64,000 nt of DNA from Chrysomallon squamiferum (taxonomy: Eukaryota; Animalia; Mollusca): the NCBI GenBank assembly GCA_012295275.1, contig CM022667.1, positions 6,386,001 through 6,450,000 on the forward strand, in the 5' to 3' direction. A program made the translations under genes and the position numbers. The notes beneath the pieces were generated by a model. It saw only the letters and a program-made list of their open reading frames with translations, was not told the DNA's origin and did not search any database. Shown here piece after piece: positions 4,640 to 62,860 of the stretch; position 1 is the stretch's first letter, and every line of letters starts with the position of its first letter.

Positions 4640-5011
4640 TTATCGATTCATTTTCCCGGAATCAGGACACAATGCAGGAAGTAAATTATCAATGAGCAAG
4701 AATCGGGACCATTCATAACGAATAACAGGTAACTGGACTGAGATTATAAAAAGTTTTCTAAACCCGTTTTGTAAGACAGTAAAGCAATAGGTGTAAAAAT
4801 AAATAAATGTTTTTGAAATGGAGTTTATGTCATAGATTATAATAATCAATTATAAACTGCTGGTGAAAAATGTATCACTTTCTTACTCAAAATTATTGTG
4901 AAACTGTTTTTGTTTTGTGTGTTTTGTTGATATTTTTTCAACTCAGCGTCACCTAAACCAGTTTACTTGAAAGGATTCGCCCAAATAAGACTCATTTGTG
5001 TAAGCAGGAAA
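4640..5011. promoter_or_regulatory. Conserved upstream block of gene A1 (putative bidirectional promoter)
   Basis: Alignable with 19125-19507 and, inverted, 61236-61620. Shared motifs are GCAGGAAGTAAATT (starts 4674, ETS-like) and ACCTAAACCAGTT (4951-4963). TTCCCGGAA (4653-4661, STAT/GAS consensus) is present in this copy only. Confidence 0.55.
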
Positions 5012-5075
5012 ATGGCGTCTGAATTGAGGTGTTTGTTTCTGTGGGTATTTCTTCTACATACTGATATTTGCTTAG
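5012..5075 (+). CDS. Gene A1 exon 1: signal peptide MASELRCLFLWVFLLHTDICL(G)
   Basis: aaaATGG start, hydrophobic core, phase-1 donor G|gtcagt; near-identical paralogue at 19508. Confidence 0.88.
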
Positions 5076-5236
5076 GTCAGTTTTTACATTGGGATGTTGT
5101 TTTGTTTTTTTGTTTGTTTGTTGTTTTCGTTTTATTTTCTTCTTATTATTATTTTTGCTCTATTGTTATTTAGTTATATATTTATTTATTTCTTGCTTTC
5201 AGTGTTTGTGTAAATAATTAATTTCACTATAATTAA

Positions 5237-6210
5237 CATGGACCAATGATTTTTTTAAAATAAAAATAGGAAACTCATTGTTTGCATACATAACAGTACA
5301 TGTTCTAGAAGTTCAATGTTTTTTGTGATAACGAAAACGAGTGAAAATTTAATTTGTAACTAATTTTGTTATCGGACCGGTTGATGGACCTTTATTTATT
5401 TATTTTTAATTTTCTGTAGTAAACCTGCATCAAGCGTTATCGGGAATAAATCAAGGCAGACATTCAAATAACACGTGATGAATTTGATTTTTACATGTAA
5501 TACGACCTTCAATGCGTTGAAAAAAAAAAAAAAAAAAAAAAAAATTATAATAGTTTCAACTATCGTTTTACAAGTAGGTACTCAGAACTGTCCGCCATGG
5601 AGTTTTAGCAGAGTAACGTGCCCACATTACAGTACCTAATGAGAATAGTCATCTTCATATTCACGCGCCAGTGTCTGTGAAAATTGTTTATTTTATTTTA
5701 TTATTATTATTATTTTTTTTTATATATATTGCCTGCAGACGTCGTAATAATATTAAAAAAAAATATAGAGTACAAAACGTGTGCGAGATGGTATGACGTC
5801 AAAGTTACCTAAAAAAAAAAAAAAAAAAAAAAAAAAAAAACGAAAAATGGTTTCGGCCTTTGCTGCAATTTCTAATCAATAATAGACATCTATGTACTGG
5901 AGGCACTGATTAAATGACATATTTCCCCAAATTACTATTAATAATCCATGCAGAATTGATTGCATTATGAAGGCATACGTATTAAAAAGTTTGCAAACTC
6001 TAATGGGCGTTCGACGCTGTCGTCTTTGATTTCGATCGGAACTTTCCGTGAGCTCACGGATTTTTTGAAACTTCCCAATTCAGTTGTTTCACATATGTTT
6101 TCTGAATGTTTTATTATTTAAACTGATAAAGATAACTATGGTTGTTCATATTACCAAACCATGAGGTCGCGGGACTTTCGTAACTACTTTTTCAACTTAA
6201 TCAAACCTTT
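5237..6210. mobile_element. Internally deleted non-autonomous relative of the transposon at ~55440-60615
   Basis: 5237-5520 aligns with 55440-55725 and 5870-6210 aligns with 60320-60615. It is absent from the equivalent position in A2 (homology breaks at 5230/19632). Confidence 0.7.
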
Positions 6211-6299
6211 TCTTCTTCTTCTTCTTCTTCTTCTTCTTATTATTATTATTAATTTAATACATTTTTGCATTGTAGTCTTTTGTTTGAAAGTTTGAAAAA

Positions 6300-8600
6300 A
6301 AATATAATTTTTTTAATAAATATGCTTCAGTTAATGAATTTATATAAAAACAAAAATGACAATGCAGAGAATATGAGTAAACTTTGTTTTATTCTTATAA
6401 CCTGTGTAGACTTTTGTTCTCATGAAGCTTATTTCTTATTTTGATGTGTTTCTAATTTAATTTCACAACATCAGTTCAGTACATAATTTCCTAAACCTGT
6501 GAAGTGTAAGTAATATGTTCAAGAAATCTTTCATTTCAAAACTCAGAAAATGTTAGAGATACTTGAAGATAGAGATATTTATAAAATTATTTAAAATAGA
6601 TTTTTGAATTGTTGTTTATACAATCATTTGTTGCTTTATTTTATGTTATTTATTTATTTATTTTTCTGAAATGGGCAGATACACGAAGAAAACTTAATAA
6701 CTGATGTATGCGTGTCTGTGTGTTTTATTTAGTAGGTTTTACTTCTGACTTTTACAAACATTTACTTATGCATTATACAAGGACATTTCATGTTTGTATA
6801 TCTTGTTTATTTATCCTGCATAAAAATATTTTACTTAAAAGTTGAAGTCTAGCTTTATTTTATAGCAATTTCTAGTTAACAGAAAGTGAAAAAGCATACA
6901 TAAACACATACAGGTATGATGTTTGTAAATGCAGAACTAATCATCATCATTAAATCTTAATACATAAACCTTATTTTGTATTTCTCTGTACATAACTGTT
7001 AATTTAATATAATTTTAAATGATTTTGAGATAATGTTTCTCTATTTTCAATAACAATATGATAAAGTGTTACGTGATTAATATTTTATAAATTTAAAAAC
7101 ATACATAAGAAGTAATTAAAACAGAAATGTCACTTCGTTTTGAAAACTAGTAATCCATTAGAAAAAAAGATTAATACAAATATTTTACGATAAAATTGAA
7201 GCAATAGTTGATTTTATAATTATATACTTGTTTTTATTTTTAATTTTAAAATAAGTATTATGACATTGATTAATATTCTGCATATACTAAACATGTTCTC
7301 TATGTCTAATCTGCTATATTCCATTATCACACATTTTTACTGGCGTTGGTGATGGATGTAAAGATATTGTCCAAGGCTAACTTCACCATAACACAACAAA
7401 GATATTACTTCTGTCCTGTGTTTATTTAGTAAGTTCACACAATAAATTTGTTATTTTCTCTTGTATCAAAAATTATAAGACCTGCTGAAAATTATTATTA
7501 TTGTTATTATTATTATTATTATTATTATTATTATTATTATTATCATCATTATCATTATCATAATTATTATTGTTAACTGTACTAAAAAAATAAAAATGAA
7601 TAAAAAATAATATTAAGCAAATATTGCTCTCAATTGTACAATATTAGAAAAACCTAATTATTTATTTAAATATATAAATATGTTTCAAATTTCAGTCATG
7701 TTCTATATCAAGTTGAATGAATATGTTTAAGAGTTTAAACAATAGTTCCATGATGTAATTATTGTGGTTCAAATTCTTTTACAGATAAATAATTTCACTG
7801 ATTAGTAAAATGTTCTAAATAAAACTCTATAAAACACAGCTGCTATGAAAATACAGAATGGTATATATCCCCAACCTTGTAAAAAAACAATTGCTAACAT
7901 AATCATTCTTTTCATCATCTCTGTTTAGTCAACAGTTTCAGTTATCTCAAATATTCTTACATGCAAAAGATGAATGAGTGAAACTGAAGTCAGCTCTTTA
8001 TTATCATTCAACACAGTGTAAAATATTTGCATCTCGAATATGATTCATTAATATTCACATGACAATTAAACAAAATTATATGTAAAAAGGAAAAATGGTG
8101 GTAATTTAATCAGAGGACATCAAAATCAAAATTTTTCAAGAAACACAAAAGCAGGTGGCATGGTGCCAACTGGCAAACCGTTTTTCCACAGCCCTGACAC
8201 ACATGTATATCAAATTCATTTTATTTATGGTTATGTCTGTGCTGTCAATAAATAATCATGTATAATACTGTTAAGAAATGATCTGTAGTAATTGAATGTA
8301 TCAGCTTTTCTAGTTTACATCCATATTTTCCATTATTCTTAACAGCCTTTTGCTTGTTAATTTATTTGGTAACTGAAACAATAATATAATAATACGAATT
8401 CCTTCTTTTAATCTAAGCAAAACAAAAACACAACTGAAGAAAACGATTTTCATCTTATTGTTAGAATGTTATAATTTATTTTCCAGAAATATATTTTTCT
8501 AATAAATAAATAAATAAATAAATAAATATACATTATAATATTGATAATAATTTTTTAACTGTTGACAGTATGTTTCACCTTTCATAAGACTTTAATCTAA
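6300..8600 (+). repeat. Copy of the intronic stalk-microexon repeat module inside A1 intron 1
   Basis: Collinear with ~25950-27700; retains the donor context acag|gtatgatgtttgta at ~6910-6927 but not the acceptor or exon body. Confidence 0.75.
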
Positions 8601-61235: not shown

Positions 61236-61620
61236 TTTCTATCAGACCATCTATTTCCTTACTTCGATGAGGCTATTTGGGCGAATATATTTTACAGAAC
61301 TGGTTTAGGTTTACAAGTGCAGAGAAGCGCGTGAAAGATAAACCAGTTTTGTTTAGTTTATAGTATAATACAGAATACAAATAAATACGCCGACAGGTAT
61401 TTGAAAATAACGAATTTAAGATTATTTTCCACGACTTTTATATTTCATAAAAATATATACAACAACAACAAAAAAGAATAATCATTATGTGCATAATTAT
61501 GGTTTGATGAATTTACATTTTGAAGTCTGGAAACGAATAACAGCAAGTAACTCCGATGACTACACTTGCGATAATTTACTTCCTGCATTTGTCGTGATTG
61601 TATTAAACAGATACGTGAGT
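61236..61620. promoter_or_regulatory. Putative bidirectional promoter between A3 (-) and B3 (+)
   Basis: AACTGGTTTAGGT at 61298-61310, GATAATTTACTTCCTGC at ~61570-61586 and plus-strand donor gtgagt at 61615-61620; an inverted homologue of the A1 and A2 upstream blocks. Confidence 0.6.
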
Positions 61621-61952
61621 TTGTTCTTTAAATTTAAAAATTCATTATATCATCCATATCATATTACTAGTAATAGGTATTATTTAACAGTACACAAACT
61701 GTACTGAAGTTATCAATAAAAATAAGTTCAGTCAATAAGAAAAATGTAGGTTAGGTTGGGTGACGTTTGTTAGATTAGATGATTAACAGTAAAATTTACT
61801 CTTACTTTGATAGAAAGTGGGTTGAGAGAGGGTTGCTGTGATCGTATGGTTGCAGTAAGACCAGTGCACAGAGGTAAGAATTCAAGATGGAAATGGCAGT
61901 AAGTTCAGTTTTTGTTATTTTCCAGATCTGACGAAATTGAGGGTCATCAACA

Positions 61953-62210
61953 ACACACACACACACACACACACACACACACACACACACACACACACAG
62001 TCTCCCAAACAAAGTACCAGCTGGACACCCCCCTCATAAGCCACACACACACACACACACACACACATATTTCAAATGGAAATTACTGATTCCAGTTATC
62101 TGGACTGTTTATCACGTGTGTTATGGACTGCTAGATTTGTTGTCATTCCTAGTGTTTGTGTGTGTGTGTGTGTGTGTGTGTGTGTGTGTGTGTGTGTGTG
62201 TGTGTGTGTG
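61953..62210. repeat. (CA)n and (TG)n microsatellites facing each other
   Basis: (CA)n at ~61953-61999 and ~62042-62067; (TG)n at ~62157-62211. Confidence 0.95.
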
Positions 62211-62793
62211 TTTGTAGTAAAGGTAAACTATGACAAAGACAAGGAACACATTATTTTTCACCCTAATCAAGACCAACAACATTGCCATATTAGACTTTTA
62301 AGAAAAATATATTTTGTAGAAAAAAAACAAAAATTGTATACTGTGCAGTATCCTTTAACATGACAGAGGCCCTGCTACGCCACAATCAAAAGCTTTGACT
62401 AAAACATTTGGATAAACCAAAGTCAATTTCATTTGTATTCACATGCATGATAAAATGTTTGACAATTATTTAGTTTTCATTTGTTTATTTAATAATGGTT
62501 TATACAGTGACCATCACTATTATTATTATTATTATTATTATTATTTATTATTATTGCTGCTGTTGTTGTTTTAGCTTTTCTAAGTAGTAATAAATAAATC
62601 ATTGCTACTGTAACAATAATTTATTAGATATGTATGTTCTAAGCTTTATTCTGCATTTATGATAACATACAATATATATATATATTCCTTAACTGACATG
62701 AAAATGCCTCTCTATAAATATATATGTAATTAAATATATGCTTTTTTTGTTTTTTAATATACATTTTTTATATATTACATTTTATAGATTAAA

Positions 62794-62860
62794 ATGATTC
62801 AGAACATCATATCTACAGTTACTCTGGTCGTCTGTCTTGCTGCTGTTGACTTGATTAAAG
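62794..62860 (+). CDS. Gene B3 signal-peptide exon MIQNIISTVTLVVCLAAVDLIK(G); rest of gene outside the window
   Basis: Acceptor ttttatag at 62787, aaaATG, hydrophobic core, phase-1 donor AAG|gtaact. Confidence 0.7.

What the first reader, a model, noticed from the sequence alone, without database searches (positions are those of the whole stretch)
4640..62860. Repeated head-to-head gene-pair cassette on a conserved bidirectional promoter
Seen: the same ~380-bp block precedes all three A genes (4640-5011, 19125-19507, 61236-61620 inverted). Its far end has an outward-facing gtgagt donor in two copies. Beyond it lie a multi-Ig gene (B2) and a signal-peptide exon preceded by an acceptor (B3). 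Inference: the duplicating unit is a co-regulated pair of different surface proteins, possibly receptor/ligand or heterodimer partners, undergoing birth and death. Such a layout would suit an immune, allorecognition or symbiont-recognition system.
Basis: partly seen in the sequence, partly recalled or inferred. Interest (0 to 1): 0.8.

Follow-up and report, generated by a model that had tools for sequence, protein, structure and literature searches.

The report
Two-way promoter in snail Ig cluster
Three related immunoglobulin-domain genes, likely from a sea snail, keep the same two short upstream motifs about 290 bases apart, and one RNA contig joins this kind of block outward to an exon lying just before a second, damaged immunoglobulin gene, so it is likely a duplicated two-way promoter whose partner genes come and go, not a proven repeated receptor pair.

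Summary
The block is real but smaller than described. Copies 1 and 2 align throughout; copy 3 shares only two exact motifs (15 and 13 bases), spaced 290-292 bases in all three although A2 and A3 differ by dS of about 1.15. An outward GTGAGT donor stands in copies 2 and 3 and is dead in copy 1. One RNA contig joins the copy-2-type donor to a canonical acceptor at 17532, so the block is transcribed and spliced away from A. A genes encode V-type Ig proteins (A2: V, mucin mini-exons, membrane helix). A repeated A/B cassette is not shown: no B1 was found, B2 has a stop and a frameshift in its second Ig exon, and B3 is one signal-peptide exon with no detectable likeness to B2. The three copies sit on three contigs; end duplications look like assembly artefacts, so the 'inversion' of copy 3 and A3's membrane exon are doubtful. 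Best reading: a duplicated bidirectional promoter with a decaying partner arm. The scan's notes held no look-alike on other DNA. Interest moderate.

The parts
4640..5011 (.). Promoter block, copy 1; motif islands 4673-4687 and 4951-4963; outward donor dead (ATAAGT, 4643-4638)
5012..5075 (+). A1 signal-peptide exon (ATG to phase-1 donor)
9508..9748 (+). A1 V-type Ig exon, cut by the contig end; an RNA contig joins an exon-1 end to its first bases
   Evidence: (X3 record 12)
9949..11568 (.). Contig-end duplicate of 40640-39012; exact dovetail, likely an unmerged assembly overlap
11898..12144 (+). Broken C-type Ig exon (stop and frameshift), gene assignment uncertain
14560..14828 (-). B2 second Ig exon with in-frame TAA (14664-14662) and a later frameshift; a consensus donor lies inside it after 14666; lower border approximate
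15939..16268 (-). B2 V-type Ig exon (B-type V domain), open frame
16964..17080 (-). B2 predicted signal-peptide exon (ATG at 17018)
   Evidence: splicing not tested in RNA
17470..17532 (-). B2 second, predicted non-coding exon; its acceptor is joined to the block's donor in one RNA contig; lower border predicted
19131..19191 (-). B2 first exon inside the block (at least this long), ending at GTGAGT
   Evidence: (X3 record 9)
19125..19507 (.). Promoter block, copy 2; motif islands 19166-19180 (holds CAGGAAGT) and 19445-19457
19508..19571 (+). A2 signal-peptide exon
20653..20994 (+). A2 V-type Ig exon; predicted fold matches antibody V domains
25638..30184 (+). Four predicted 24-nt Thr/Ser-rich mini-exons of A2 (25638, 26691, 29238, 30161)
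32021..32128 (+). A2 predicted membrane-helix exon
34251..38777 (-). Fold-back copy of 29053-33580 at a contig end; likely artefact; holds the only other membrane exon
42981..45430 (-). Two predicted A3 mini-exons (45430-45407, 43004-42981)
49867..50208 (-). A3 V-type Ig exon
61178..61235 (-). A3 signal-peptide exon
61236..61620 (.). Promoter block, copy 3; motif islands 61587-61573 and 61310-61298; outward donor GTGAGT at 61615-61620
62788..62860 (+). B3 candidate: acceptor, ATG, hydrophobic 22-residue peptide, phase-1 donor; rest of the gene not in the window

Best explanation
The block is likely a duplicated bidirectional promoter in a cluster of V-type Ig genes: two short motifs stay about 290 bases apart in all three copies, the inner one likely starts the A gene and the outer, ETS-like one likely starts an opposite-strand transcript, which one RNA contig shows spliced at the conserved donor. 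Shown: motifs, spacing, donors, the spliced join, spliced A-side joins, and the V fold of A2 (a confident prediction). Inferred: the ancestral unit was a head-to-head pair that co-transcribed a membrane V-mucin protein (A) with a secreted partner (B); duplication carried promoter plus A reliably, while the B arm was lost (copy 1, donor dead), is decaying (copy 2) or has diverged or been replaced (copy 3). A recognition role at the cell surface is inferred from architecture alone.
For: Motif-to-motif length 291, 292 and 290 bases although copies 1 and 2 differ by seven indels and copy 3's spacer is unalignable. A2 versus A3 V exons: dS about 1.15, dN about 0.34 over 112 codons. A GTRAGT start falls in 218 of 18122 30-base windows, yet one stands 15-22 bases beyond the outer motif in 2 of 3 copies, and the third has the homologous site with GT lost. 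X3 record 9 aligns to 19133-19191 and its loose end matches 17505-17532 at 27 of 28 letters, the only match in the window, 0 of 100 shuffles; the join has GT and CAG ends. Copy-1-type contigs, whose donor is dead, run on unspliced for 300-800 letters on the B side in 3 of 3 RNA runs. A signal-type exon like B3's appears in 3 of 200 shuffles of that region.
Against: The spliced join rests on one 90-base contig of depth 6.3 in 1 of 3 RNA runs, about 93% like copy 2, so an allele or a paralog. Contigs give no strand or start. Copy-1-type contigs cover the whole spacer without a hole in 3 of 3 RNA runs, which a clean divergent promoter would not give. X1 record 1 covers the B-side intron unspliced. 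Splicing onward into B2's coding exons and any RNA at copy 3 were not tested. The spacing test is modest (P about 0.05 for copies 1 and 2, one alignment; the 384 flank windows overlap). At an identity of 0.68 an exact 15-mer would be expected about once. The B3 scan criteria were set after seeing the candidate.
Confidence: 0.5

Rival explanations
1. One reading: an intact A/B pair is the duplicating unit, B3 is a B-type Ig gene, and A and B products act together as receptor and ligand or heterodimer.
For: Signal-type exons lie beyond the donor in 2 of 3 copies. If contig III is joined by its dovetail overlap, B3-A3 and B2-A2 become direct tandem units. The spliced contig differs from copy 2, so it may come from a further copy that carries B exon 2. 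5 of 150 scored relatives hold A-type and B-type V domains in one chain. Run X5 laid 53 contigs, 34 of them under 95% alike, which suggests more copies.
Against: No B1 Ig exon in 1-4640 and no V exon in the 1140 bases after B3. B2 versus B3: no DNA likeness beyond the motifs; signal peptides score as shuffles (314 of 1000), while A1, A2 and A3 peptides match each other (0 of 1000). B2's second Ig exon is broken.
Confidence: 0.2
2. A KIR/Ly49-like switch: sense and antisense starts overlap and compete, the B-side RNA is mainly regulatory, and each cell expresses only some A genes; B2 exons were merely captured.
For: RNA covers the spacer continuously and extends unspliced outward in copy-1-type contigs. 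B2's predicted 186-base leader has 7 upstream ATGs and its coding region is damaged. An ETS-like core is kept. KIR and Ly49 genes each carry such an element (PMC4222648, passages).
Against: A donor and signal-type exons on the B side are more than a pure switch needs. No strand, single-cell or small-RNA data. The analogy is to mammals and involves no sequence likeness.
Confidence: 0.12
3. An ordinary one-way promoter with an upstream enhancer motif; RNA across the block is a long A leader, read-through or pre-mRNA, and the outward join is incidental antisense splicing.
For: Continuous contigs from upstream through the spacer into a spliced exon 1. Only one contig shows the outward join. Divergent promoters within 1 kb are common (11% of human genes; PMC10887517, passage).
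Against: A long A1 leader would hold 12 upstream ATGs in 4300-5011. The outward donor is kept in the deeply diverged copy 3. The join uses a canonical acceptor that points at an Ig gene.
Confidence: 0.15

Closest known systems
Gigantopelta aegis uncharacterised and 'CEACAM1-like' Ig proteins (XP_041347222.1, XP_041378788.1, XP_041372806.1, XP_041373280.1, XP_041372462.1; names)
   Same: Same two V-domain types at 35-49% identity, related signal peptides for A, a similar membrane-proximal segment in XP_041347222.1; 11 of 16 named relatives share one 53.39-Mb record. A 'CEACAM5' expansion is listed in PMC7895826 (figure legend passage).
   Different: There A-type and B-type V domains are often fused in one chain; here they lie in opposite genes. 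Gene orientation and promoters in that species could not be examined.
KIR and Ly49 bidirectional promoter switches (PMC4222648, PMC10887517; passages)
   Same: Tandem recognition-receptor cluster, each gene with a bidirectional element; Ets site; antisense RNA.
   Different: Their antisense RNA is non-coding; here the outward transcript is spliced toward Ig exons. Variegated expression is untested. No homology.
Plant paired NLRs such as RRS1/RPS4 and Pik-1/Pik-2 (PMC9528088; passages)
   Same: Head-to-head neighbours with a shared intergenic region of some hundred bases, in immune-type families.
   Different: Intracellular NLRs with proven co-dependence; here extracellular Ig proteins, one partner damaged, co-dependence untested.
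TIM-type V-mucin-membrane receptors (recalled, no call)
   Same: A2 architecture: signal, V domain, Thr/Ser-rich stalk, membrane helix.
   Different: No TIM metal-site motif in the A2 V exon as read; stalk built from 24-nt mini-exons; cytoplasmic tail not found.

Membership tests
Bidirectional promoter / head-to-head gene pair | First exons on opposite strands within 1 kb | tested here: met
   Copy-2 type: B exon ends at 19131, A coding starts at 19508; spliced contigs on both sides. One contig only for the B side.
Bidirectional promoter / head-to-head gene pair | Two divergent start sites mapped in the shared region | not testable with these tools
   Only contigs were available; they show no start or strand.
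Bidirectional promoter / head-to-head gene pair | Co-expression of both genes | tested here: inconclusive
   A-side and B-side joins both appear in run X3 but may come from different copies.
Repeated two-gene cassette | Homologous B gene beside at least two copies | tested here: inconclusive
   No likeness B2-B3 in what the window holds; B3's body lies outside the window; no B1 Ig exon.
Paired receptors of the plant NLR-pair type | [quoted passage not shown] | not testable with these tools
   Needs genetics or biochemistry.
KIR/Ly49 probabilistic switch | Competing sense and antisense starts giving variegated expression | not testable with these tools
   No stranded or single-cell data.
KIR/Ly49 probabilistic switch | Antisense transcript is non-coding | tested here: inconclusive
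   Copy-2-type RNA splices toward a damaged Ig gene; copy-1-type RNA is unspliced.
Ig superfamily, V-type domain | V-type beta-sandwich with the Cys-Cys pair | tested here: met
   A2 model pLDDT 96.8; best match Z 13.0, rmsd 2.2, 102 aligned, antibody Fv; invariant C19 and C97 in 66 rows. B2 V matches the A profile (probability 89, E 2e-6).
Ig superfamily, V-type domain | Pfam Ig model above its curated cut-off | tested here: not met
   Best scores 15.8 (I-set, A3) and 17.7 (Ig_2, B2 second exon), under cut-offs 23.7 and 27; none for A1, A2 or B2 V.
CEACAM | N-terminal V domain without the internal disulfide (recalled feature) | tested here: not met
   Both canonical cysteines are invariant; the CEACAM label is an automatic name on one relative.

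The most novel reading that the evidence does not exclude
A mollusc recognition system built from a repeated two-way cassette: one fixed-length promoter drives, or switches between, a membrane V-mucin receptor and a secreted V-type partner, the same two domains that a related snail fuses in one chain, giving cell-to-cell or copy-to-copy receptor diversity without recombination.
Probability: 0.17. Interest if true: 0.75.

Novelty: new variant of a known kind. Interest (0 to 1): 0.42.

Why it matters
Bidirectional promoters are common, but one whose two motifs and spacing survive more than one synonymous change per site inside an expanding invertebrate V-Ig cluster gives a short, testable element for asking how molluscs control families of recognition proteins. 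If the B arm proves functional in other copies it would be an animal surface-receptor counterpart of head-to-head immune pairs. The window is also a warning: contig-end duplicates can invent gene orientation and domain architecture in such clusters.

Tried and rejected
No whole genome is held, so other copies could not be counted. Homolog searches for longer proteins found none for B2 V (49 candidates) or A2 V (120 candidates); the full HMMER search did. The single-sequence fold of B2 V was unusable (pLDDT 38.4). The complex prediction of A2 V with B2 V gave no answer (score 0.00 in two runs, alignments not used, controls not folded); it is not used either way. The outer-motif pattern found 0 matches in metagenome contigs. 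Rfam: 0 matches. RNA could be laid only on 18720-19940, so B2's coding exons, A2's stalk and copy 3 are untested in RNA; no contig at 99% or more to copy 2 was seen in the 3 RNA runs, which proves nothing. The exon scan in the first part missed the known membrane exon and was dropped. The signal-peptide comparison used wrong frames for A1, A3 and B2 and was redone. The tree is the quick one (56 rows, 108 columns); it separates A-type from B-type (support 100) but does not resolve A1-A3 as a clade. Rejected: a dispersed repeat at non-Ig loci, within this window only (both motifs occur only before A genes); a true A2/A3 palindrome kept by gene conversion (differences are mostly 1-2 base indels and the copy stops at the contig end), though not excluded.
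Full report
Setting. The window is AT-rich animal DNA (29% GC) made of three contigs separated by two 200-N gaps (9749-9948, 38812-39011). No whole genome is held. A profile of the A2, A3 and B2 V exons found 157 relatives at E up to 0.001, 150 listed. Of 20 relatives looked up (of 153 held), 16 carry a name and all 16 are Gigantopelta aegis; 11 of the 16 share one 53.39-Mb record. The Atlas gave unnamed mollusc clusters at 0.95. The host is therefore likely a gastropod; I do not assign it further.

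The block. The three copies align better than all 200 shuffles and all 281-291 background pieces. Copies 1 and 2 match at 270 of 340 columns, inside a 1.1-kb homology (3979-5101 with 18356-19597). Copy 3 shares only two islands, an exact 15-mer holding CAGGAAGT (ETS-like; label recalled, and GABP enrichment in bidirectional promoters read in PMC10887517) and an exact 13-mer; its spacer is no better than shuffled (60 and 148 of 300). Both motifs occur in the window only at these three sites. The span from one motif to the other is 291, 292 and 290 bases, although copies 1 and 2 differ by seven indels (+23, +1, +9, -2, -1, -2, -27); random signs give a net of 1 or less in 4.8% of trials, and 0 of 384 overlapping flank windows keep length within 1 base. 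A2 and A3 V exons have dS about 1.15 and dN about 0.34, so the motifs outlived deep neutral divergence. Against this: at an identity of 0.68 an exact 15-mer is expected about once in 350 positions; at the synonymous identity of 0.41, 0.0005 times. GTGAGT faces outward in copies 2 and 3; copy 1 keeps the four preceding bases of copy 2 but reads ATAAGT. Such a donor starts in 218 of 18122 30-base windows.

RNA. Five runs hold part of 15500-21300; three RNA runs and one of unknown kind were laid on 18720-19940, all as contigs. X3 record 9 (90 bases, depth 6.3, 4 other letters in 59) aligns to 19133-19191 and its loose end matches 17505-17532 at 27 of 28 letters, uniquely. The join falls at the predicted donor and at a CAG acceptor, which implies the minus strand. 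On the A side, loose ends at the end of exon 1 read like the start of the A2 V exon (X1, X2; 9 letters) and of the A1 V exon (X3; 18 letters). Results against a clean divergent promoter: contigs with copy-1 letters and copy-1 geometry cross the whole spacer and go on 300-800 letters outward in 3 of 3 RNA runs, and X1 record 1 covers the B-side intron unspliced with a weaker donor. A's first intron has no depth in X1 and X3, which argues against much DNA in these libraries. Overlapping starts, a long leader or read-through all fit. X5 covers all 30 bins with 53 contigs, 34 under 95% alike, which suggests more copies in the genome but is no copy number.

The A genes. A2 is signal exon, V exon, four 24-nt Thr/Ser-rich mini-exons and a membrane exon, 203 residues without a stop as predicted; a cytoplasmic exon was not found. 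The V model is confident (pLDDT 96.8 with 66 rows) and matches antibody V domains (Z 13.0, rmsd 2.2, 102 aligned), though no Pfam cut-off is reached. A1's V exon is cut by the contig end. A3 has signal, V and two mini-exons of its own.

Assembly. 9949-11568 and 40640-39012 form an exact dovetail: contig II begins and contig III ends at the edges of the match. They differ by 9 substitutions and 18 indels; the copy 34251-38777 of 29053-33580 differs in its core by 7 and 16, and stops 34 bases before the gap. True paralog pairs in the window show the reverse (75:12, 15:0, 17:0, 19:2). I infer an unmerged overlap and a fold-back. Then contig III should be flipped in front of contig II, copies 3 and 2 point the same way, and the second membrane exon (the only other one) is not A3's. 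Raw reads are needed to prove this.

The B side. B2 has a first exon in the block, a 63-base exon, a signal exon, an open V exon (43-49% to G. aegis B-type domains) and a second Ig exon with an in-frame stop and a frameshift. The frameshift could be a sequencing error in this indel-prone region; the stop is a substitution. A donor inside that exon would give a short secreted product (4 more residues after the next acceptor). I found no membrane exon below it (read by eye). No Ig exon lies in 1-4640; copy 1/copy 2 homology ends at 3979 beside a FLYWCH remnant. B3 is a credible signal exon (3 of 200 shuffles) but shows no likeness to B2 in DNA or peptide (314 of 1000), and no V exon follows in the 1140 bases left. 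A-type and B-type V domains are distant relatives and are fused in 5 of 150 scored relatives.

Mechanism. Most likely (0.5) the block is a bidirectional promoter that was duplicated with the A genes while its B arm decayed or turned over. Shown: motifs, spacing, donors, one outward splice, A-side splices. Inferred: start sites, the ancestral pair, secretion of B, any recognition role. Rivals: an intact repeated pair (0.2), a one-way promoter with incidental antisense splicing (0.15), a KIR/Ly49-like switch (0.12).

Literature. Nine searches (listings and abstract starts only) showed no description of this arrangement in a mollusc; (gastropod, head-to-head, immunoglobulin, gene cluster, promoter) and one search returned 0 papers. 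I read passages only of PMC7895826, PMC4222648 (12 of 20 places), PMC10887517, PMC9528088 and PMC7736800 (0 occurrences of immunoglobulin, CEACAM or head-to-head). No supplements were read; gene lists there may name these genes. The library lacks most subscription papers. The scan's own notes gave no look-alike; they list other Ig findings in this genome, which I did not test.

Verdict. Observation partly confirmed, interpretation partly supported. New variant of a known kind; interest 0.42.

Noticed in passing
window 2976-3848: FLYWCH zinc-finger ORF (Pfam E 1.8e-8) with broken downstream frames, likely a transposase remnant, next to where copy 1/copy 2 homology ends.
   Followed up: partly
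window 6213-8777: A1's first intron holds a copy of the roughly 2.5-kb repeat unit that carries mini-exons downstream of V in A2 and A3; here it lies before the V exon and has lost its acceptor. Unexplained.
   Followed up: partly
window 16240-16488: 103-base tandem repeat (2.4 copies) that duplicates the acceptor and first bases of B2's V exon.
   Followed up: no
window 23599-24312: Element with 33-base perfect terminal inverted repeats; related pieces at 41248-41665, 50732-51032 and 52403-53127. A3's likeness to A2 stops at one of these, about 600 bases before the membrane exon.
   Followed up: partly
window 24819-24841: Mini-exon-like 23-base piece that would not keep the frame; pseudo-exon or homopolymer error.
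   Followed up: no
window 51075-59888: Several long minus-strand ORFs in A3's 11-kb first intron, likely mobile-element remains; only weak Pfam hints.
   Followed up: no
window 61738-61913 and 53134-53311: A 180-base repeat (86.7%, inverted) inside B3's predicted intron; a further strong acceptor follows at about 61925.
   Followed up: no
window 19508-19574, runs X1 and X2: Contigs with a copy-1-type promoter continue into letters like the A2 V start; a further paralog or a graph path through shared exon-1 words.
   Followed up: partly
window 32021-32128: The membrane exon resembles G. aegis XP_041347222.1, which has further hydrophobic segments; no matching exons were found downstream here.
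   Followed up: partly
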